Notes: a model not told the origin generated them from the sequence alone. DNA of 35,587 nt from Patescibacteria group bacterium (GCA_034659435.1 JAYEHJ010000091.1:1-35587), one strand, 5' to 3'; shown: positions 4,835 to 25,243, numbered from the stretch's first letter. Numbers and translations are program-made.

Positions 4835-7687
4835 ATGCCCAAAAAACAAAAAAAATTAATGATTATAGATGGGAATGCTTTGATTCATCGGAGTTTTCAT
4901 GCCTTGCCGCCTACTATGACGACAAAAGACGGAACAGTTGTGAATGCTGTTTACGGTTTTATGAGTTTTTTAATTAAAGCCATGCGGGATTTGCGCCCGG
5001 AATACGTGGTTTTAACATTGGATAAAAAAGGGCCGACATTCAGGCATAAAAAGTTTAAAGAATATAAAGCAAAGCGGGTGAAAGCGCCGGATGAACTTTA
5101 CGCGCAAATTCCAATGGTAAAAAAACTGGCTATTGACTTTAATATCCCTGTTTTTGAAAAGGACGGTTTTGAGGCGGATGATTTAATTGGGACGATTTCG
5201 TCAGGAATCAGGAATCAAGAATCAGGAATCAAGGATTTAGAATGTATTATCGTTACTGGCGATAAGGATACTTTACAGCTGGTTAATAAAGAAACAAAGG
5301 TTTATTCTATGAGCCGCGGGTTAAGTGACTCTATATTGTATGATGAGGCGCTTGTGAAAGAAAAAATGGGTGTTAACGTCGGGCAGGTGGTTGATTATAA
5401 AGCGTTGAGCGGAGACGCGAGCGATAATATTCCGGGAGTGCCGGGAATTGGCGCCAAAACAGCGGTTGCGCTGTTAAAAGAGTTTGGTAATTTGGATAAT
5501 TTGTACAAACACGCAACTCACAGCTCACAACTCATAACTAAAAAAATTAAGCCTCGTATTTTGGATTTGCTTGTTGAGCATAAAAAAAGCGCTTATTTGT
5601 CGCGCGAATTGGCAACTATTAAATGTGATGTGAAAATTAAATTTAATTTGGAGGCTATGCGATTTTTTGATTTGGATAAAGATAAAATTGTTAAAGCCTT
5701 AAGCGAGCTTGAATTTAAATCTTTATTGCCACGGGTACAAAGTTTGTTTAACGAAGTCGGGTTGGATACAAAAGAAAAAAAACAGCAAGCAACTGAAGAT
5801 AAATTTAAGCGCAATAAGAATAGTTTTAAATATATTTTTGTTAATAATGAAAATAAGTTTAAAATTTTTTTGGCTGAATTAAAAAAACAAAAATACTTTA
5901 CTTTTGACACGGAAACTTCCAGTTTTGATCCGATTACATGTGATTTGCTGGGGGTTAGTTTTTCCTGGAAGAAAGGAGAAGCGCATTTTGTTCAGTTAAG
6001 AATTAAGAATGAAGAATTAAGAATTAAGGATTGTGGTCAAGGGTCATTGTTTGGAGAAACAAAAAAATTTTGTGATGATGACAAAGGAAAGATTTGGCTG
6101 GAAAAATTAAAGCCGATTTTTGCTGATGAAAAAATTAAAAAAACAGCGCATAATGCCAAGTTTGATGCGCGGGTTTTGAAAAATAAAGGCGTTGTTGTTA
6201 ATGGTTTGGATTTTGATACTATGATTGCTTCTTATCTTTTGAATCCGGGAACGCGCGGGCATGGCTTGGACGCGCTTGCTTTTACCGAGTTGGGGTTTGA
6301 AAAAATATCCAAGAATGATTTATTAGGAACAGGAAAAGACAAAAAAACTTTTAGCGAAGTGGAAATGGAAAAATTAAGCCTTTACTCGTGCGAAGACGCG
6401 GATTTTACCGAACGGCTAAGGCATGCTTTAAAGCCAAAATTAAAAAAAGAAAATCTGGAAGCGCTTTTTAAAACAATAGAGATGCCGTTGATTAGCGCGC
6501 TTTCATGCATGGAAGACACCGGCGTAAAAATTAACTCTGAATTTTTGTCAGAAATGAGCAGGAAAATGGCAAAAAAAATCAAAGCGCTTGAAAAAAAAAT
6601 TCATGATTTGGCAGGAGAAATTTTTAACATAAAATCAACAAAACAATTAAAATATATTTTATTTGAAAAAATGGAATTACCGACAGAAGCGATCAAAAAA
6701 ACCAAAACCGGTTTTTCAACAGGCGCGGATGAATTGGAAAAATTAAAAGAATATAGTCCGATAATTTCCTTAATTCAAGAATACAGAGAATTAAATAAAT
6801 TAGTCAGTACATATATTGACGCTTTACCCGCGCTTGTTAATGAAAAAACCAAACGAGTTCATACAAGCTATAATCAAACAATTACAGCTACCGGCAGATT
6901 GTCCTCCACAAAACCGAATTTACAGAATATTCCGGTTAAAACAGATTTGGGAAATGAAATCAGGAAAGCGTTTATCGCGGACAAGGGCTATAAATTATTG
7001 GCTTTGGACTATTCACAAATTGAATTAAGGCTTGCGGCGCATATGTCCGGCGACAAAAAGATGATTAAAGCGTTTAATAATGGGGCGGATATTCACAGCG
7101 CGACAGCGGCGGAAATAAATAATGTTTCTTTAGATGAAGTTAGCGCGAAGATGCGCCGAGAGGCAAAAGCTATAAATTTTGGCATTCTTTACGGGCAAGG
7201 CCCGCGCGGACTTTCCCGCGGAGTTAATATTCCTTACGCGCGAGCCAAGGATTTTATTGATAATTATTTTAAAGTCTATTCGGGAATAAAAACATATGTG
7301 AATGAAAAAATCGCGTTCGCGCGCGAATATGGCTACGCGGAAACAATGTATAAAAGAAAAAGATATTTGCCTGAAATCAATTCAAGTATTTTACAGGTAA
7401 AAAAAGGCGCCGAGCGCATGGCGATAAATACTCCGATACAAGGAACAGCCGCGGATATAATTAAAATCGCCATGATTGAAGTTATGGATAAAGTTTGCAG
7501 CAGCAAAGCAAAAATGCTTATGCAGGTTCATGATGAGTTGATTTTTGAAGTTAAAGATAGCGAGGTTAAAAAAGAAGCTGAGAAAATTAAAAAAATCATG
7601 GAAAATGTTGTTAAACTAGACGTTCCGATTATTGTTGATGTTAAGGCCGGGGAGAATTGGGGGGAGATGGGGTCAATTCTCAATTAA
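4835..7687 (+). CDS. polA: DNA polymerase I (5' nuclease + 3'-5' exonuclease + polymerase domains)
   Basis: 950 aa. 5' nuclease: EADDLIGT...TGDKD and GVPGIGAKTA. Exo motifs: FDTETSS, NAKFDARVL, YSCEDADFT. Pol motifs: DYSQIELR, RREAKAINFGILYG, QVHDEL. Confidence 0.95.
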   Translation: MPKKQKKLMIIDGNALIHRSFHALPPTMTTKDGTVVNAVYGFMSFLIKAMRDLRPEYVVLTLDKKGPTFRHKKFKEYKAKRVKAPDELYAQIPMVKKLAIDFNIPVFEKDGFEADDLIGTISSGIRNQESGIKDLECIIVTGDKDTLQLVNKETKVYSMSRGLSDSILYDEALVKEKMGVNVGQVVDYKALSGDASDNIPGVPGIGAKTAVALLKEFGNLDNLYKHATHSSQLITKKIKPRILDLLVEHKKSAYLSRELATIKCDVKIKFNLEAMRFFDLDKDKIVKALSELEFKSLLPRVQSLFNEVGLDTKEKKQQATEDKFKRNKNSFKYIFVNNENKFKIFLAELKKQKYFTFDTETSSFDPITCDLLGVSFSWKKGEAHFVQLRIKNEELRIKDCGQGSLFGETKKFCDDDKGKIWLEKLKPIFADEKIKKTAHNAKFDARVLKNKGVVVNGLDFDTMIASYLLNPGTRGHGLDALAFTELGFEKISKNDLLGTGKDKKTFSEVEMEKLSLYSCEDADFTERLRHALKPKLKKENLEALFKTIEMPLISALSCMEDTGVKINSEFLSEMSRKMAKKIKALEKKIHDLAGEIFNIKSTKQLKYILFEKMELPTEAIKKTKTGFSTGADELEKLKEYSPIISLIQEYRELNKLVSTYIDALPALVNEKTKRVHTSYNQTITATGRLSSTKPNLQNIPVKTDLGNEIRKAFIADKGYKLLALDYSQIELRLAAHMSGDKKMIKAFNNGADIHSATAAEINNVSLDEVSAKMRREAKAINFGILYGQGPRGLSRGVNIPYARAKDFIDNYFKVYSGIKTYVNEKIAFAREYGYAETMYKRKRYLPEINSSILQVKKGAERMAINTPIQGTAADIIKIAMIEVMDKVCSSKAKMLMQVHDELIFEVKDSEVKKEAEKIKKIMENVVKLDVPIIVDVKAGENWGEMGSILN
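5201..5242 (+). repeat. 7-nt periodic array, purine-rich flavour, in-frame in the polA 5' nuclease domain
   Basis: TCAGGAA TCAGGAA TCAAGAA TCAGGAA TCAAGGA TTTAGAA, translated SGIRNQESGIKDLE. Confidence 0.85.
5508..5542 (+). repeat. 7-nt periodic array, CA flavour, in-frame in polA
   Basis: AACACGC AACTCAC AGCTCAC AACTCAT AACTAAA, translated HATHSSQLITK. It shares a 15-nt identical core with the reverse complement of 9217-9244. Confidence 0.85.
5996..6037 (+). repeat. 7-nt periodic array, purine-rich flavour, in-frame in the polA 3'-5' exonuclease domain
   Basis: TTAAGAA TTAAGAA TGAAGAA TTAAGAA TTAAGGA TTGTGGT, translated LRIKNEELRIKDCG. Confidence 0.85.
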
Positions 7688-7714
7688 AAATTACGAATTA
7701 CGAATTATTCATTT
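7687..7714 (+). repeat. 7-nt periodic array, AATTACG flavour, starting at the polA stop codon
   Basis: AAAATTA CGAATTA CGAATTA TTCATTT. Confidence 0.75.
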
Positions 7715-12446: not shown

Positions 12447-12481
12447 ATTAATTTTTAATTCGTAATTTGTAATTGAAAATT
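12447..12481 (-). repeat. 7-nt periodic array, AATTACG flavour, directly after the PilB/GspE stop codon
   Basis: Plus strand: ATTAATT TTTAATT CGTAATT TGTAATT GAAAATT. It is contiguous and in phase with the 12412-12446 array. Confidence 0.8.
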
Positions 12482-12483
12482 GA

Positions 12484-14202
12484 TTACTTTTCTTCAGCAA
12501 CCCTAAACACTTCGTCAACCGAAGTGATGCCGCTAGCCGCTTTTAAAAGGCCGTCTTGCGCCATGGAAATGGTGCCTTTTTCCGCGGCCGCGCCGCGTAT
12601 GTCATATTCGCTGATATTTCCTGATAAAATTAATTTTTCCATTTGCGCGTCAACAATTATTATTTCATATATTCCGATGCGGCCTTTGTAGCCGATCCCC
12701 TGGCAAGCATCACAGCCATCGCCTTGATAAAATTTTAAATTGCTAAAATCTATATTTGCTTGTTCTTCTTTGGGAAGTTTTTTTAATATTTCAAGCGCTT
12801 TTTTTAATTTTTCATCTTCAAGCTTAATTTCTTTTTTGCAATTTTCGCATATTTTTCTAACCAAGCGCTGGCCAATCATCGCGTTTAGAGCCGGGGCGAG
12901 TAGAAAAGGCTTTGTTCCCATTGACAAAAAGCGCGGCACTGTTCCGGCGGCGTCATTGGTATGGATTGTTGACAATACTAAATGGCCGGTTAAGGACGCT
13001 TGAATGGCGATTTCAGCGGTTTCTAAATCACGGATTTCCCCCACCATAATTATATCTGGATCTTGGCGCACTATTGATCTCAGTCCTTGAGCGAAAGTAT
13101 ATTTTTCGCTTATTTGCGATTGATTCACGCCTTCCAGCTGGTATTCAATCGGATCTTCAATGGTAATGATTTTTGTTTCCTGATTATTCAGTTTTTTTAA
13201 AATCGCGTAAAGAGTCGTGGTTTTGCCGCTGCCTGTCGGTCCGGTGGTAATAATCATGCCGTTCGGCCTTCCAACTTCTTTTTTTAATTGCTGAAAAGCG
13301 CGATCCCTAATCCCCAAATCTTCAAAACCCAGTCCGACTGAGCTTGATTTAAGAATACGCATTACCACGCTCTCGCCGAAATTTGTCGGCAAAAACGAAG
13401 CGCGGATATCAATTCTTTCTTTTGAGGTAATTAATGACAATCTCCCGTCCTGCGGCTTGTCGGTAATATTTATTTTTACTTTGGCTAAAACTTTTAAGCG
13501 GGAAATTATTTTTTTCCATAATTCTTTGTCAACCGCGGCAGCGTCATGCAAAACGCCGTCTACGCGAAAACGCACTTTTATTCCTTCTTCTTCTGCTTCA
13601 ATATGAACATCAGATGAATCCAGTTTTATTGAAGCGGACATAATCATAGTAACAATATCGGTAACTTTCGCCTTGTCAATTTCCGATTGCAGATCGCGAA
13701 AGCTTGAAAATTTTTCGCTGAATTTATTAAGATCCGCTTCGGTCAGCTCCACGCCGCGCGATACTTTTCTCACTTTTGGAATAGCCTTATAAAACCCCAA
13801 AGCGTAATCAAGGCTATTTTGCGAAATCAAATAAACCTCGCCATCACAATAAAGTTCCGTACATAGTTTTTGCAATACATCTATTACCTCCTTGTTTTGC
13901 GGAGTAATAGCGCCTAAACGAATTTTTTTGCCGTCATAAACAAAACAAACAGCCTTGATTTTTCCGGCATTTTCTTCTTTGATTAACGATAACGCTTCCG
14001 GACTGATTGGAAAACCAAACAAATTAATGTAAGACACTCCCATGCCGGCGGCTTCCGTCTCGGCTTTTCTTTCCATTTCCTTTATTTTAATTTGCTTTTG
14101 CCTGGATTGAAATTTCGCCTGAGCGCTTTCATCATCAACAACATTATTACTGTTTTTTGAAGCCGCAATCAGATCTTCAATTGATTGAATTTTTTGAGTC
14201 AT
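12484..14202 (-). CDS. type II/IV secretion-family ATPase (PilB/GspE)
   Basis: Walker A GPTGSGKTTT, Walker B IIMVGEIRD, His box STIHTND, and a C-terminal CxxC...CxxC zinc motif. The true start is taken as ATG 14202 (MTQKIQS...). The 62 extra N-terminal codons in the ORF track translate a repeat element. Confidence 0.9.
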   Translation of the reverse strand: MTQKIQSIEDLIAASKNSNNVVDDESAQAKFQSRQKQIKIKEMERKAETEAAGMGVSYINLFGFPISPEALSLIKEENAGKIKAVCFVYDGKKIRLGAITPQNKEVIDVLQKLCTELYCDGEVYLISQNSLDYALGFYKAIPKVRKVSRGVELTEADLNKFSEKFSSFRDLQSEIDKAKVTDIVTMIMSASIKLDSSDVHIEAEEEGIKVRFRVDGVLHDAAAVDKELWKKIISRLKVLAKVKINITDKPQDGRLSLITSKERIDIRASFLPTNFGESVVMRILKSSSVGLGFEDLGIRDRAFQQLKKEVGRPNGMIITTGPTGSGKTTTLYAILKKLNNQETKIITIEDPIEYQLEGVNQSQISEKYTFAQGLRSIVRQDPDIIMVGEIRDLETAEIAIQASLTGHLVLSTIHTNDAAGTVPRFLSMGTKPFLLAPALNAMIGQRLVRKICENCKKEIKLEDEKLKKALEILKKLPKEEQANIDFSNLKFYQGDGCDACQGIGYKGRIGIYEIIIVDAQMEKLILSGNISEYDIRGAAAEKGTISMAQDGLLKAASGITSVDEVFRVAEEK

Positions 14203-14215
14203 ATTTATATTTAAA

Positions 14216-14402
14216 GGGACTGCCGCCGAATGCCAGTTTTGGCATAAATTTTCAAATTTTGAGTAAACTTTTCTTAAAAAAATTTTGCTTATGTGATAAT
14301 ATACGCCCCGTAGGAAGTGCCCTTGGGGTAGGCCAAATTTTTTTAAGATAAATTTGCCAAAATTTGGGAATTTAGGGCAAACTGGCATTCGGCGACAGTC
14401 CC
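14216..14402. mobile_element. 187-bp MITE-like element, family A (terminal inverted repeats GGGACTGCCGCCGAATGCCAGTTTTGGCA / CAAACTGGCATTCGGCGACAGTCCC)
   Basis: The inverted termini were read directly. ATTTAAA lies on both flanks. The interior is non-coding and carries a nested family-C hairpin at 14304-14328. The element lies in the leader of the PilB/GspE gene. Confidence 0.8.
14304..14328. mobile_element. family C 25-nt hairpin micro-element (inverted) flanked by TA/TA, nested in the family A MITE
   Basis: TA[CGCCCCGTAGGAAGTGCCCTTGGGG]TA. Confidence 0.75.
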
Positions 14403-19730: not shown

Positions 19731-19806
19731 GGTGGCTATAGTTCAACGGTTAGAACATCGGATTGTGGTTCCGATGATTCGGGTTCGATTCCCGATAGCC
19801 ACCCCA
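19731..19806 (+). tRNA. tRNA-His (anticodon GTG), with G-1 and encoded CCA
   Basis: G(-1)+GTGGCTA/TAGCCAC+C73, anticodon loop TTGTGGT, T-loop TTCGATT, CCA at 19804-19806. Confidence 0.9.
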
Positions 19807-20266: not shown

Positions 20267-21679
20267 ATGTCAGAATTATCAAGTGCTATCAAACATGTTT
20301 GCGAGGAAAAAGGCTTGGATATGGACGCGGTAATATCTACCATTGAATACGCTTTGGCTGCCGCTTATCGCAAGGATTTTGGGCAAAAAAATCAAAATAT
20401 TATAGTTGAATTTGATACTGAAAAAGGGACTTCAAAAGTTTATGATGTTAAAACCGTGGTTGAGGATATTTTGGAAGAAGATGAACAGGAAAAAGAAAAA
20501 ATAAAGGATGAAAAAGTAAAAAGGGGCAAAGCTCCTGATGTTAAAAAAACGGATGGTAAAAAAGATGAAAAATCGGCTGAAGATAAAAATAAAAAAGAAG
20601 AAGATAAAAAGGACGAATCCGCCACCGCTAAAAAGTCGGCGGACTTGCCCGCCATAGCTTCAGCGGCGGAAGGCGAGGAAAGAAAATTTAATCCTAAAAC
20701 TGAAATTCAGATTAGTGATGCCAAAATGCTTAAAAAAACCGCGAAAATTGATGATGAAATTAAAACCAAGCTTGAAGTGCCGGATGCTTACGGACGCATG
20801 GCAGCGCAAACCGCCAAGCAGGTAATTATTCAAAGATTGCGGGAGGCAGAGCGGGAAATGATTTTTAATGATTTTAAAGACAAAGAACACGAGGTTGTTA
20901 GCGGCGTTATTCAAAGGCGCGAAGGCCGGATTATTTTGGTTGATTTGGGCAAGTCAGTCGGCGTTATTCCGCCGGATGAGCAAATTATCGGCGAGAAATA
21001 TAATACAGGCGACAGGGTTAAAGTTTATGTTAAAGAAGTTACTTTAAAGCCTAGGGGGCCGGAAATTATTCTTTCCCGCACTTCGGAAGAAATTTTGAAA
21101 AAAATATTTTATTTGGAAATTCCTGAAATTTCCAATGGCTTAATTGAGTTCAAAAGCGTGGCGCGCGAGGCAGGGTCGAGATCAAAGGTTGCCGTTTGGA
21201 CTGATTCGGAAAATGTTGATCCAATAGGTTCCTGCGTCGGCCAGCGCGGCTCTCGAATTCAAACTATTATCAATGAGCTTGGCGGGGAAAAAGTTGATAT
21301 CATTGAATATGATGACGATCTTAGCAGATATATTTCCAATGCTTTGTCTCCGGCAAAAATCGGTAAAATTGATATGAATGAAGAGACAAAAAAAGCCACA
21401 GTTACCGTTCCCAATGATCAGCTGTCTTTGGCAATCGGCAAAAGCGGACAAAACGCGCGTCTGGCAGCCAAGCTGACCGGTTGGAAAATTGATATTGTGG
21501 AAGATAAAGAGAATCAGGAATCAGGAATTAAGAATCAAGGAGAAGCTTCGGAAGATACCAAAAATGTTGATGATGTTGAAAATGCCGAAGAGAAAAACGA
21601 TGAACAGAATAAAGAGAAAATATCAAAAGATTCTGAAAATGTTAAAGCAGGCGAAGAAAAAGATGATGAAAAAAAATAA
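20267..21679 (+). CDS. nusA: transcription termination/antitermination factor NusA (with charged insertion and acidic tail)
   Basis: NTD, then RMAAQTAKQVIIQRLREAERE, S1 domain, and KH1/KH2 (GSCVGQRGSRIQ, AIGKSGQNARLAAKLTGWKIDI). Confidence 0.9.
   Translation: MSELSSAIKHVCEEKGLDMDAVISTIEYALAAAYRKDFGQKNQNIIVEFDTEKGTSKVYDVKTVVEDILEEDEQEKEKIKDEKVKRGKAPDVKKTDGKKDEKSAEDKNKKEEDKKDESATAKKSADLPAIASAAEGEERKFNPKTEIQISDAKMLKKTAKIDDEIKTKLEVPDAYGRMAAQTAKQVIIQRLREAEREMIFNDFKDKEHEVVSGVIQRREGRIILVDLGKSVGVIPPDEQIIGEKYNTGDRVKVYVKEVTLKPRGPEIILSRTSEEILKKIFYLEIPEISNGLIEFKSVAREAGSRSKVAVWTDSENVDPIGSCVGQRGSRIQTIINELGGEKVDIIEYDDDLSRYISNALSPAKIGKIDMNEETKKATVTVPNDQLSLAIGKSGQNARLAAKLTGWKIDIVEDKENQESGIKNQGEASEDTKNVDDVENAEEKNDEQNKEKISKDSENVKAGEEKDDEKK
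21514..21541 (+). repeat. 7-nt periodic array, purine-rich flavour, in-frame in the nusA C-terminal tail
   Basis: TCAGGAA TCAGGAA TTAAGAA TCAAGGA, translated QESGIKNQG. Confidence 0.85.
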
Positions 21680-24570: not shown

Positions 24571-24654
24571 TGCCCGAGGCCGGACTCGAACCGGCACGGT
24601 GTCGCCACCAAGAGATTTTAAGTCTCTCGCGTATACCAATTTCGCCACTCGGGC
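24571..24654 (-). tRNA. tRNA-Leu (anticodon TAA), type II with long variable arm
   Basis: The reverse complement folds as GCCCGAG/CTCGGGC acceptor, anticodon stem AGAGA/TCTCT with loop CTTAAAA, a 16-nt variable arm, and T-arm GCCGG-TTCGAGT-CCGGC. Confidence 0.9.
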
Positions 24655-24810: not shown

Positions 24811-24887
24811 TGGTGGACCGTAAGGGATTCGAACCCTTGACCCCCTGCGTGCAAGGCAGGTGCTCTAGCCAGCTGAGCTAACGGCCC
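24811..24887 (-). tRNA. tRNA-Ala (anticodon TGC), encoded CCA
   Basis: The reverse complement is GGGCCGTTAGCTCAGCTGG...CCTGC-CTTGCAC-GCAGG...GGTTCGAATCC...ACGGTCCACCA. G3:U70 is present. Confidence 0.92.
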
Positions 24888-25171: not shown

Positions 25172-25243
25172 GCGGGTATGGTATAGTGGCTATTACATTA
25201 CCTTGCCAAGGTAGAGAGACGGGTTCAATTCCCGTTACCCGCT
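25172..25243 (+). tRNA. tRNA-Gly (anticodon GCC)
   Basis: Acceptor GCGGGTA/TACCCGC, anticodon loop TTGCCAA, T-arm ACGGG-TTCAATT-CCCGT. Confidence 0.88.

What the first reader, a model, noticed from the sequence alone, without database searches (positions are those of the whole stretch)
5201..5242. Purine-rich 7-nt-periodic array translated inside the polA 5' nuclease domain
TCAGGAA TCAGGAA TCAAGAA TCAGGAA TCAAGGA TTTAGAA is strictly 7-periodic, which does not fit codon periodicity. Even so, it is read through as SGIRNQESGIKDLE between the conserved EADDLIGT and TGDKD motifs. From memory, this segment is about 5 residues longer than the equivalent E. coli Pol I segment. Near-identical arrays occur at 5996-6037 (polA exonuclease domain) and 21514-21541 (nusA tail). 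One of these is in a different reading frame, so the similarity is at the DNA level and not the protein level. A dispersed 7-mer array that tolerates translation in more than one frame points to a mobile or recombinogenic DNA element.
Basis: partly seen in the sequence, partly recalled or inferred. Interest (0 to 1): 0.75.

Follow-up and report, generated by a model that had tools for sequence, protein, structure and literature searches.

The report
Translated 7-base microsatellites in polA
The 7-base repeat inside the DNA polymerase I gene is real: it is a slippage-prone microsatellite read through as protein, one of many that sit in surface loops of housekeeping genes in these tiny Patescibacteria (CPR) bacteria. 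That placement is unusual, because elsewhere such repeats avoid coding sequence.

Summary
The polA gene (4835-7687) holds 7-nt arrays at 5201-5242 and 5996-6030, and nusA holds one at 21511-21541. TYARGAA x3 gives 9 hits against 0.01 expected. I found two more arrays: 5514-5541 in polA and 7689-7707 just after the polA stop.

The organism is a Parcubacteria/Patescibacteria bacterium. In 1.05 Mb of related polA loci, period 7 gives 74 arrays, while periods 4-6, 8-13 and 15 give 12 or fewer. Outside polA, 24 of 33 arrays lie in long open frames. In other phyla the figure is 20 of 85.

In polA the arrays cluster at a few surface loops. The exonuclease-loop array is orthologous across lineages, but its unit changes (TTAAGAA, TTACAAA, GTCAAAA, AATGTCG and others) and tracks phylogeny. 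The nusA array has 4 units here and 13 in a sister genome, a difference of 63 nt. In one relative, near-identical contigs differ by a single 7-nt unit and a single 8-nt unit, which splits polA or restores its frame.

Best reading: these are heptanucleotide simple-sequence repeats evolving by slippage and out-of-register recombination, filtered by reading frame, stop codons and loop tolerance. The "different frame" argument is flawed, because any 7-nt repeat encodes the same cyclic heptapeptide in all frames. Mobility is not shown. I rate it a new variant of a known kind.

The parts
4835..7687 (+). polA (DNA polymerase I, 950 aa), host gene of four arrays, with a fifth just after its stop codon
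   Evidence: Pfam hits to 5_3_exonuc_N, 5_3_exonuc, DNA_pol_A_exo1 and DNA_pol_A. Closest homologs are named Candidatus Parcubacteria or Patescibacteria DNA polymerase I.
5201..5242 (+). Heptanucleotide array, site 1 (the finding): TCAGGAA TCAGGAA TCAAGAA TCAGGAA TCAAGGA TTTAGAA, reading SGIRNQESGIKDLE (residues 123-136)
   Evidence: The sister genome L001 has GTAGGAA (TCAGGAA)4 TTTAGAA at the same place. Most homologs have a loop 7 aa shorter. In the AlphaFold model this is the end of helix 114-126 plus a coil before strand 135-141.
5514..5541 (+). Degenerate heptanucleotide array: CAACTCA CAGCTCA CAACTCA TAACTAA, reading ATHSSQLITK (residues 227-236)
   Evidence: It coincides with an 8-aa insertion relative to Taq and M. 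smegmatis Pol I. It also coincides with a hot spot where L144, L145 and L160 carry perfect or near-perfect arrays.
5996..6030 (+). Heptanucleotide array, site 2, in the 3'-5' exonuclease domain: TTAAGAA TTAAGAA TGAAGAA TTAAGAA TTAAGGA, reading LRIKNEELRIKD (residues 388-399)
   Evidence: The third unit is TGAAGAA exactly where TTAAGAA would be read as AAT TAA, a stop. 20 of the 30 arrays found in 81 polA genes map to residues 386-395. The model shows the end of a strand followed by a low-confidence loop.
7689..7707 (+). Short array AATTACG AATTACG AATTA directly after the polA stop codon, in the polA-murD spacer
   Evidence: Arrays lie at the same 3' end of polA in L001 (5327-5345), in L149 and L150 where they are translated as ITNYELR, and in L198.
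20267..21679 (+). nusA (470 aa), host gene of the tail array
   Evidence: Pfam hits to NusA_N, S1, KH_5 and KH_NusA_C.
21511..21541 (+). Heptanucleotide array in the NusA C-terminal tail: (GAA) TCAGGAA TCAGGAA TTAAGAA TCAAGGA, reading NQESGIKNQG
   Evidence: The array is orthologous in relatives. The sister genome L204 has 13 units between the same flanks, a difference of 9 units, 63 nt or 21 codons.
12449..12474 (-). Degenerate AATTACG-type array (TAATTTT TAATTCG TAATTTG TAATTGA on the + strand), about 10 nt 3' of the stop of the T2SSE/PilB-like gene (12484-14388, - strand)
   Evidence: This is the same unit family and the same position relative to a stop codon as 7689-7707. Membership is tentative because the array is weak.

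Best explanation
The feature is a heptanucleotide simple-sequence repeat (a 7-nt microsatellite) embedded in frame in polA. It belongs to a population of such arrays that pervades Patescibacteria genomes.

Inferred mechanism: the arrays are created, homogenised, lengthened and shortened at the DNA level by strand slippage and out-of-register recombination or repair between units.

Three filters decide which arrays survive inside genes.
1. Frame. One unit shifts the frame by +1. Only net changes of 3 units (21 nt, one heptapeptide), or single-unit changes compensated nearby, keep the protein intact.
2. Stops. All three phases of the unit are read in turn, so only units without TAA, TAG or TGA on the sense strand can be perfect. 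Units such as TTAAGAA persist only with a substitution in every third unit.
3. Location. Only surface loops, linkers, tails and gene ends tolerate the extra peptide.

Because 7 and 3 are coprime, the encoded peptide is the same cyclic heptapeptide in every frame. The peptide is probably a passenger with no function of its own.

Shown: the periodicity, the excess, the placement, orthology with unit turnover, and the length polymorphisms.
Inferred: the slippage or recombination mechanism and the neutrality of the peptide.
For: 1. Excess of period 7. In 1.05 Mb of related loci there are 74 arrays at period 7, against 12 or fewer at periods 4-6, 8-13 and 15 and 0-1 in shuffles. The 11 arrays at period 14 are probably the same arrays with alternating units. 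Outside polA the counts are 33 against 6 or fewer.

2. DNA level, not protein level. The sister genome L001 has perfect (TCAGGAA)4 at site 1 and perfect (TTACAAA)4 at site 2, where the window has TTAAGAA-type units. Other lineages have perfect (AATGTCG)4.5, (AAACTCA)4.5 and (AAGTCAA)4.5 at the same residues. In PolA proteins, exact i/i+7 peptide runs of 4 or more number 33, against 5 or fewer at any other lag.

3. Vertical descent with concerted evolution. Unit distance at site 2 correlates with PolA divergence (Spearman -0.43, permutation p = 0.0025). L140 and L142 differ by the same T/C change in two adjacent units with no change in length.

4. Length change in frame-preserving quanta. The nusA array has 4 units in the window and 13 in L204, a difference of 63 nt. 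In L204 the unit in the stop-prone phase is never TTAAGAA. Site 1 is +21 nt relative to the common loop.

5. Single-unit slippage in nature. L126, L206 and L205 are identical in the flanks shown.
- L126 carries (AATGTCG)4 + (AAAAACAC)4 and polA is intact.
- L206 carries 4 + 3 units, and polA is split into 428-aa and 539-aa ORFs.
- L205 carries 3 + 3 units (-15 nt), and the frame is restored after 11 out-of-frame codons.

6. Permissive sites. The arrays map to helix ends, coils and low-pLDDT loops and to insertions relative to solved Pol I structures.

7. No RNA structure. Fold z-scores are +0.38 to +1.87, and there are no Rfam hits at the arrays.

8. Literature. Heptanucleotide repeats are the most abundant long-SSR class in many prokaryotes, and polymerase slippage has been proposed as the cause (Mrazek et al. 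2007, as summarised in PMC4679880 and PMC4692102).
Against: - Slippage alone does not explain why three arrays in 35 kb share the TYARGAA family and the same terminal variant TYAAGGA. It also does not explain why arrays within a locus share units more often than arrays from different loci (24% against 9.5% at distance 1 or less, p = 0.001).
- Homogenising 7-nt units without frameshift intermediates requires out-of-register conversion, which I did not observe directly.
- The window's own arrays are interrupted and short, with at most 2 identical adjacent units. They may now be nearly static.
- No population data exist for this genome: its protein cluster has a single member.
- Why the period is 7 rather than 5 or 8 remains unexplained.
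Confidence: 0.72

Rival explanations
1. Mobile or copied element. Pre-formed heptamer arrays spread to new sites within a genome, for example by ectopic gene conversion or templated repair between arrays, or by an unknown insertion activity. This would make them selfish DNA inserted in frame, like the Rickettsia palindromic elements.
For: - The same unit family and the same terminal variant unit occur at three sites in the window.
- Units are shared within loci more than between loci (p = 0.001). L149 has GAATTAC arrays at three or more sites.
- Site 1 is occupied only in the window and L001 clade.
- In the next clade (L002/L003) both array sites carry the same roughly 31-nt hairpin element, and it occurs nowhere else in 23 kb. 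This suggests either exchange between the two sites or targeting of them.
Against: - There are no terminal inverted repeats, target-site duplications or fixed element length.
- Arrays are orthologous and vertically inherited. Unit similarity tracks PolA phylogeny, and the nusA array has the same flanks in relatives.
- Length changes occur in unit steps in situ.
- Unit sharing within a genome could also come from genome-specific base composition and peptide tolerance.
Confidence: 0.15
2. Adaptive contingency (phase-variation) switch. Single-unit slippage reversibly frameshifts polA, for example switching off the proofreading exonuclease or splitting the enzyme, and this is selected as a mutator or regulatory switch.
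For: - The unit length is not a multiple of 3.
- Near-identical natural contigs carry intact, split and compensated polA alleles that differ by one 7-nt unit and one 8-nt unit.
Against: - The host genes are housekeeping genes (polA, nusA, murD-like), not surface or restriction-modification genes.
- The arrays are short, 4-6 units. In the window they are interrupted, which stabilises them.
- The same arrays occur in C-terminal tails and just after stop codons, where a frameshift has little effect.
- The frameshift alleles could simply be deleterious variants caught in passing.
Confidence: 0.08
3. Protein-level selection. The heptad-like peptides (SGIRNQE, LRIKNEE) are functional structural repeats, and the DNA periodicity is a by-product.
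For: - The peptides are hydrophilic and lie on the protein surface.
- The site 2 segment has a fairly constant length of about 10-12 aa across many homologs.
Against: - The same site holds unrelated peptides in different lineages: LRIKNEE, LQITNYK, VKSQKSK, MSNVECR, NFQFPIS, CRMPNAE.
- Repeats use identical codons and are perfect at the nucleotide level.
- A 7-aa repeat in which every codon is a phase-shifted reading of one 7-mer cannot be produced by selection on the protein.
- Model confidence is low at site 2.
- Most homologs lack the site 1 insert.
Confidence: 0.04
4. Chance, composition or assembly artefact.
For: The genome is AT-rich (37% GC), and its proteins are rich in K, E and N.
Against: - Dinucleotide-preserving shuffles give 0.01 expected hits against 9 observed, and 0-1 arrays against 74.
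- The arrays recur at orthologous sites in independent assemblies from NCBI, ENA and JGI.
- The arrays (20-40 nt) are shorter than the assemblers' k-mers (contigs are named k141_), so copy-number collapse is unlikely.
Confidence: 0.01

Closest known systems
Long simple-sequence repeats with 7-nt units in prokaryotes (Mrazek, Guo & Shah 2007, as summarised in PMC4679880 and PMC4692102)
   Same: - Tandem 7-nt units, far more common than neighbouring periods.
- Unit-step length variation.
- Polymerase slippage proposed as the cause.
   Different: - Those repeats are reported as mostly intergenic, and only units that are multiples of 3 were noted as common in coding regions.
- In the Patescibacteria loci studied here, 73% of arrays outside polA lie in long open frames, about the coding fraction.
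- In heptamer-rich loci of other phyla the figure is 24%.
TAACTGA heptamer direct repeats of Beggiatoaceae, cyanobacteria and Bacteroidetes (MacGregor 2015, PMC4679880)
   Same: - Dispersed same-unit heptamer arrays of 2-6 copies.
- Indels in 7-nt steps between strains.
- A few copies lie inside ORFs in the stop-free orientation, translated as LSVISYQ. The authors noted that stop codons dictate orientation.
   Different: - TAACTGA sets lie overwhelmingly just upstream of start codons and use a single unit per genome. A regulatory role was proposed for them.
- Here there are many different units. They sit in internal loops of conserved enzymes, and the unit changes at orthologous sites.
Cyanobacterial STRR heptanucleotides and GGGNATC repeats of Xanthomonas and Nostoc (PMC4692102)
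   Same: Dispersed tandem heptamers with variable copy number.
   Different: - Those are G-rich and form G-quadruplexes.
[quoted passage not shown]
- The window's units are A-rich, unstructured and translated.
Rickettsia palindromic elements (Ogata et al. 2000; from my own knowledge, not checked here)
   Same: Repetitive DNA tolerated in frame within surface loops of conserved housekeeping proteins, with presence or absence differing between orthologs.
   Different: - RPEs are elements of about 100-150 bp with defined length and palindromic structure, and they are not tandem.
- The 7-mer arrays have no hairpin and no fixed length.
- The roughly 31-nt hairpin element in L002 polA resembles RPEs more than the arrays do.
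Contingency loci of Haemophilus and Neisseria (tetranucleotide repeats in genes; 7-bp repeats in the hmw1A promoter, PMC8262952)
   Same: The repeat unit is not a multiple of 3, so slippage toggles the reading frame. Natural alleles with a broken or a restored frame were seen in a relative.
   Different: - Contingency loci have long perfect tracts in surface or restriction-modification genes, and their switching has been demonstrated.
- Here the arrays are short and often interrupted, and they sit in housekeeping genes. No adaptive switching has been shown.

Membership tests
Prokaryotic heptanucleotide simple-sequence repeats (long SSRs) | Three or more head-to-tail copies of a 7-nt unit | tested here: met
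   TRF reports period 7 with 4.4, 5.3 and 3.9 copies. The units are listed.
Prokaryotic heptanucleotide simple-sequence repeats (long SSRs) | More frequent than expected from composition, and more frequent than neighbouring periods | tested here: met
   9 hits against 0.01 expected. Period 7 gives 74 arrays, against 12 or fewer for the other non-multiple periods, in 1.05 Mb. Outside polA the counts are 33 against 6 or fewer.
Prokaryotic heptanucleotide simple-sequence repeats (long SSRs) | Copy number varies in unit steps between related genomes | tested here: met
   The nusA array has 4 units in the window and 13 in L204. (AATGTCG) has 4 or 3 copies between near-identical contigs. Variation within the window's own population could not be tested.
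Prokaryotic heptanucleotide simple-sequence repeats (long SSRs) | Predominantly intergenic and depleted from coding sequence | tested here: not met
   24 of 33 arrays outside polA lie in open frames of 120 codons or more, against 79% for random segments (p = 0.39). In other phyla the figure is 20 of 85 against 86% (Fisher odds ratio 8.7, p = 1.3e-6). This is a usual property of the family rather than a defining one.
Phase-variable contingency locus | Repeat within a coding sequence, with a unit that is not a multiple of 3 | tested here: met
Phase-variable contingency locus | Long uninterrupted tract that mutates at high rate | tested here: not met
   The window's arrays have at most two identical adjacent units. 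Relatives do have 4-5 perfect units.
Phase-variable contingency locus | On and off alleles coexisting within populations, with a phenotype | tested here: inconclusive
   Intact, split and compensated polA alleles occur in near-identical contigs from different samples. There are no read-level frequencies, no phenotype, and no data for the window's own genome.
In-frame selfish insertion elements (Rickettsia palindromic element type) | Dispersed copies of one element with defined length and ends | tested here: not met
   Array lengths range from 18 to 91 nt, and there are no conserved ends.
In-frame selfish insertion elements (Rickettsia palindromic element type) | Palindromic or hairpin-forming sequence | tested here: not met
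   RNA fold z-scores are +0.38 to +1.87.
In-frame selfish insertion elements (Rickettsia palindromic element type) | In-frame presence in surface loops of conserved proteins, absent from some orthologs | tested here: met
TAACTGA / STRR dispersed heptamer families | Family-specific unit sequence (TAACTGA; CCCCAGT, TTGGTCA, CAACAGT; GGGNATC) | tested here: not met
   The units here are TCAGGAA, TTAAGAA, CAACTCA and AATTACG.
TAACTGA / STRR dispersed heptamer families | Placement just upstream of start codons or between ORFs | tested here: not met
   Four of the window's arrays are internal to coding sequences. One or two lie just after stop codons.

The most novel reading that the evidence does not exclude
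Patescibacteria carry a lineage-wide class of self-perpetuating, translated heptanucleotide microsatellites. On this reading they seed themselves into the same permissive loops of essential genes, exchange sequence between sites by ectopic conversion, and through single-unit slippage produce reversible split or frameshifted alleles of polA. That would amount to a built-in switch affecting proofreading and mutation rate. A related version is that the arrays are the footprint of a 7-nt slippage bias specific to the replication and repair machinery of these reduced genomes, which would make the old question 'why seven?' testable.
Probability: 0.15. Interest if true: 0.75.

Novelty: new variant of a known kind. 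Interest (0 to 1): 0.55.

Why it matters
Heptanucleotide repeats are a known but unexplained excess in prokaryotic genomes, and they are described as avoiding genes. In these loci the picture is different.
- They sit inside essential enzymes at about the rate expected from coding density.
- They persist at orthologous loops while their unit sequence turns over.
- They generate natural frameshift and compensated alleles.

This matters for three reasons.
1. It gives a clean natural system for studying how non-triplet microsatellites are born, homogenised and filtered by translation.
2. It explains odd heptad-like peptides (SGIRNQE, ITNYELR, CRMPNAE, NFQFPIS) that appear in CPR protein predictions and can mislead alignment, domain calling and gene calling.
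3. It flags array sites as likely sources of split-gene calls in metagenome-assembled genomes.

Tried and rejected
- RNA explanation. The arrays fold no better than shuffled sequence, and Rfam finds only five tRNAs in the window. Rejected.
- Protein-repeat explanation. Rejected because unrelated peptides occupy the same site and the DNA arrays are perfect.
- Global peptide search with (SGIRNQE)6. It returned only 46-74 aa hypothetical ORFs in cyanobacteria, Accumulibacter and others, probably spurious ORFs over long intergenic arrays. It was uninformative for short arrays in real genes.
- Genome-collection scan for TYARGAA x3. Most hits outside CPR are perfect intergenic (TTAAGAA)n or (TTAGGAA)n arrays, which carry stop codons.
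- The metagenome polA scan returned no relative above 65% identity, so there is no strain-level comparison for the window's own arrays.
- NusA lag-7 peptide statistics are swamped by K/E-rich low complexity. The DNA comparison was needed instead.
- Literature searches linking heptamer or simple-sequence repeats with CPR or Patescibacteria found nothing. This shows absence from the held library only.
- The hairpin element of L002 was searched for in the window and in all fetched loci. It was found only at the two polA sites of L002 and L003.
- I did not test whether mismatch-repair genes are absent.
Full report
**1. The observation**

The sequence at 5201-5242 is TCAGGAA TCAGGAA TCAAGAA TCAGGAA TCAAGGA TTTAGAA. 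It lies in frame in a 950-aa ORF (4835-7687). That ORF has the 5'-nuclease, 3'-5' exonuclease and family A polymerase domains, and its closest relatives are DNA polymerase I of Candidatus Parcubacteria and Patescibacteria. The array is read as SGIRNQESGIKDLE between EADDLIGT and TGDKD.

The two other arrays are also there.
- 5996-6030: TTAAGAA TTAAGAA TGAAGAA TTAAGAA TTAAGGA, reading LRIKNEELRIKD in the exonuclease domain.
- 21511-21541: TCAGGAA TCAGGAA TTAAGAA TCAAGGA, reading NQESGIKNQG in the NusA tail.

TRF calls period 7 at all three. TYARGAA x3 with up to 2 mismatches gives 9 overlapping hits against 0.01 expected from dinucleotide-preserving shuffles.

- 5514-5541: CAACTCA CAGCTCA CAACTCA TAACTAA, reading ATHSSQLITK.
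- 7689-7707: AATTACG AATTACG AATTA, immediately after the polA stop.

**2. A point of logic**

A 7-nt unit repeated three times is 21 nt, or 7 codons, and those codons run through all three phases of the unit. Every frame therefore gives the same cyclic heptapeptide: SGIRNQE, QESGIRN, RNQESGI. The nusA and polA peptides are in fact similar. The DNA-level origin is correct, but for other reasons given below.

**3. Orthologs**

*Site 1.* Aligning 120 PolA homologs shows that most have a short loop here (GTI-AKKVDGK-VEKIIVTGD). The window is 7 residues longer, which is 21 nt or 3 units. A minority of homologs carry other 7-periodic peptides at this site, such as ITNYELRITN and EVRSKKLEVRS.

*Site 2.* Most homologs carry a 10-12 aa segment that is 7-periodic, but the sequence differs by lineage: LRIKNEELRI, LQITNYKLQI, LSIINYQLSI, MQNAKCKMQN, IKNQKSKIKN, VESRKLKVES, VDCRMPNAEL.

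*DNA confirms it.* The sister genome L001 (84% identical PolA) has GTAGGAA (TCAGGAA)4 at site 1 and a perfect (TTACAAA)4 at site 2. Metagenome relatives have perfect (AATGTCG)4.5, (AAACTCA)4.5, (AAGTCAA)4.5 and (AATTTTC)4.5 at the same residues.

*Hot spots.* Across 81 polA genes, 30 arrays cluster at residue 123, residues 226-230, residues 386-395 (20 arrays), residues 409-410 and the C-terminus. The window occupies four of these hot spots.

*Peptide statistics.* Exact i/i+7 peptide runs of 4 or more occur 33 times in these PolA proteins, against 5 or fewer at any other lag from 3 to 12.

*Phylogeny.* Unit similarity at site 2 tracks PolA relatedness (Spearman -0.43, permutation p = 0.0025). 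This argues for one old array evolving in concert rather than repeated unrelated insertions.

**4. A genome-wide habit**

In 1.05 Mb made up of the window, L001, L002 and 80 metagenome polA loci, arrays passing the same score number 74 at period 7. Periods 4-6, 8-13 and 15 give 12 or fewer, and shuffles give 0-1. Period 14 gives 11, probably the same arrays with alternating units.

With polA removed (833 kb of flanks, deduplicated), the counts are 33 at period 7 against 6 or fewer for periods 4-12. That is about one array per 25 kb. Of these, 24 of 33 lie in open frames of 120 codons or more, which does not differ from random segments (79%, p = 0.39).

The heptamer-rich loci of other phyla, recovered by the pattern scan, behave differently. 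Their other period-7 arrays lie in open frames in only 20 of 85 cases, against 86% for random segments (p = 5e-38). Comparing the two groups gives a Fisher odds ratio of 8.7 (p = 1.3e-6). That scan also showed that perfect (TTAAGAA)n and (TTAGGAA)n arrays, which contain stop codons, are intergenic in many phyla, while the stop-free (TCAGGAA)n arrays sit inside long ORFs.

**5. Dynamics**

*The nusA array.* It is orthologous in relatives. Between the same flanks the window has 4 units and the sister genome L204 has 13. The difference is 9 units, 63 nt or 21 codons. In L204, every unit that falls in the phase where TTAAGAA would read as TAA is instead TGAAGAA, TCAAGAA, TGAGGAA, TGAAAAA or TCAGGAA. 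This produces a 21-nt super-period. The window's site 2 shows the same fix in its third unit.

*Single-unit changes in nature.* Within one 90%-identity PolA cluster, three contigs from different samples are identical across the aligned flanks.
- L126 carries (AATGTCG)4 + (AAAAACAC)4, and polA is intact.
- L206 carries (AATGTCG)4 + (AAAAACAC)3, and polA is split into 428-aa and 539-aa ORFs.
- L205 carries (AATGTCG)3 + (AAAAACAC)3. The total change is -15 nt, and the frame is restored after 11 out-of-frame codons.

The arrays are shorter than the assembler's k-mer, so collapse during assembly is unlikely.

*Homogenisation without length change.* L140 and L141 differ from L142 by the same T-to-C change in two adjacent units with no change in array length. 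This is what out-of-register conversion would produce.

**6. Structure and RNA**

Against Taq and M. smegmatis Pol I, the window has +5 residues at site 1 and +8 at residues 226-233.

An AlphaFold2 model (mean pLDDT 84.6) places the arrays as follows.
- Site 1 is at the end of helix 114-126 plus a coil before strand 135-141.
- Site 2 is at the end of strand 382-390 and runs into a stretch with pLDDT below 50 (residues 400-413).
- Residue 227 lies between two short helices.

The arrays fold no better than shuffled RNA (z = +0.38 to +1.87). Rfam finds only tRNAs in the window.

**7. Explanation**

The best-supported reading is a heptanucleotide simple-sequence repeat that evolves by slippage and out-of-register recombination. 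Inside genes it is filtered by three things.
- Frame: changes of 3 units, or compensated changes.
- Stops: only sense-open units, or phase-locked substitutions.
- Position: only permissive loops, tails and gene ends.

The periodicity, the excess, the placement, the orthology and the polymorphisms are shown. The molecular mechanism and the neutrality of the peptide are inferred.

The main unexplained points:
- Why the period is 7.
- Why arrays in one genome tend to share a unit family. Within loci, 24% of array pairs are at distance 1 or less, against 9.5% between loci (p = 0.001). The window's three TYARGAA arrays share even the terminal TYAAGGA unit.
- Why, in the neighbouring clade (L002/L003), both polA array sites carry the same roughly 31-nt hairpin element, which occurs nowhere else in 23 kb.

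These points keep a copying or mobility component alive at about 15%. An adaptive phase-variation role is possible but unsupported, at about 8%.

**8. Comparison with what is known**

Heptanucleotide repeats are the most abundant long-SSR class in many prokaryotes, and polymerase slippage has been proposed as the cause. They are reported as mainly intergenic, and the GGGNATC family is under-represented in coding regions. MacGregor (2015) described dispersed TAACTGA repeats with 7-nt indels between strains. A few of these lie in ORFs in the stop-free orientation, translated as LSVISYQ.

The present case belongs to that kind. It differs in three ways: abundant in-frame residence in conserved housekeeping enzymes, recurrent use of the same loops, and unit turnover at orthologous sites. 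I found no paper linking such repeats with CPR or Patescibacteria in the held library. Rickettsia palindromic elements are a functional analogy only (from my own knowledge). The tested features of defined length and hairpin formation are not met.

**9. Verdict**

- Novelty: a new variant of a known kind.
- Interest: 0.55.

Noticed in passing
L002:10375-10406 and L002:11221-11252 (also L003): A roughly 31-nt GC-rich hairpin element (TCCNCCCGTAGGAACAGGGCACTGCCCTGTT; RNA fold -22.8 kcal/mol, z = -2.5) is translated in frame as S(S/T)RRNRALPC. It sits at both polA array sites of this clade and nowhere else in the 23-kb locus. It resembles in-frame palindromic selfish elements. Its restriction to the two array sites is unexplained.
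   Followed up: partly
L126:8250-8285, L205 and L206 (alignment A1 columns 95-135): An 8-nt tandem repeat (AAAAACAC)3-4 lies inside polA, 37 nt downstream of the 7-nt array. It is polymorphic by one unit between near-identical contigs, and in L206 it splits polA into 428-aa and 539-aa ORFs.
   Followed up: yes
PolA homologs P0038, P0058, P0066; P0014, P0016; P0025, P0046 (site 2 region): Other short peptide motifs recur in the same loop of distantly related PolA proteins: SSRRFAPQDD, KPIQQVQGRQENN and SGxPEPSSxSAG. They may come from further small dispersed DNA elements tolerated in frame in CPR genes.
   Followed up: no
window:12408-12445: An intergenic CA-rich period-7/14 array (CACATAT CACGCAA CACACAT CACACAA CACGCAT) lies between two minus-strand genes. 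Similar GTGTTGC-type arrays are intergenic in the sister genome, at L204 9196-9259 and 11522-11538.
   Followed up: no
L059:3036-3116 and six further sites in 7 kb (Chloroflexia contig): Pairs of (AATTAAG)4 arrays in inverted orientation, 18 nt apart, recur at intervals of about 850 nt. These are long potential hairpins made of heptamer arrays, within a repeated unit of unknown nature.
   Followed up: no
window:20267-21679 (NusA residues ~75-135): The NusA N-terminal domain is interrupted by a long K/E/D-rich low-complexity insertion; Pfam matches NusA_N in two stretches. Relatives carry different insertions there, one with a 7-periodic KLKIKNEKLK segment (P0134).
   Followed up: partly
P0097 against P0278 (90%-identity PolA cluster, residues ~392-420): Within one 90%-identity cluster the loop after site 2 carries either a KSEIRNPKS array-type peptide or an unrelated PPFEKPVSLEACRGGGVGGL insert. 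Turnover of small inserts at this loop is therefore very fast.
   Followed up: no
window:18998-19069, 19732-19803, 24571-24654, 24814-24887, 25172-25243: Five tRNA genes (Rfam RF00005). They are unrelated to the finding.
   Followed up: no
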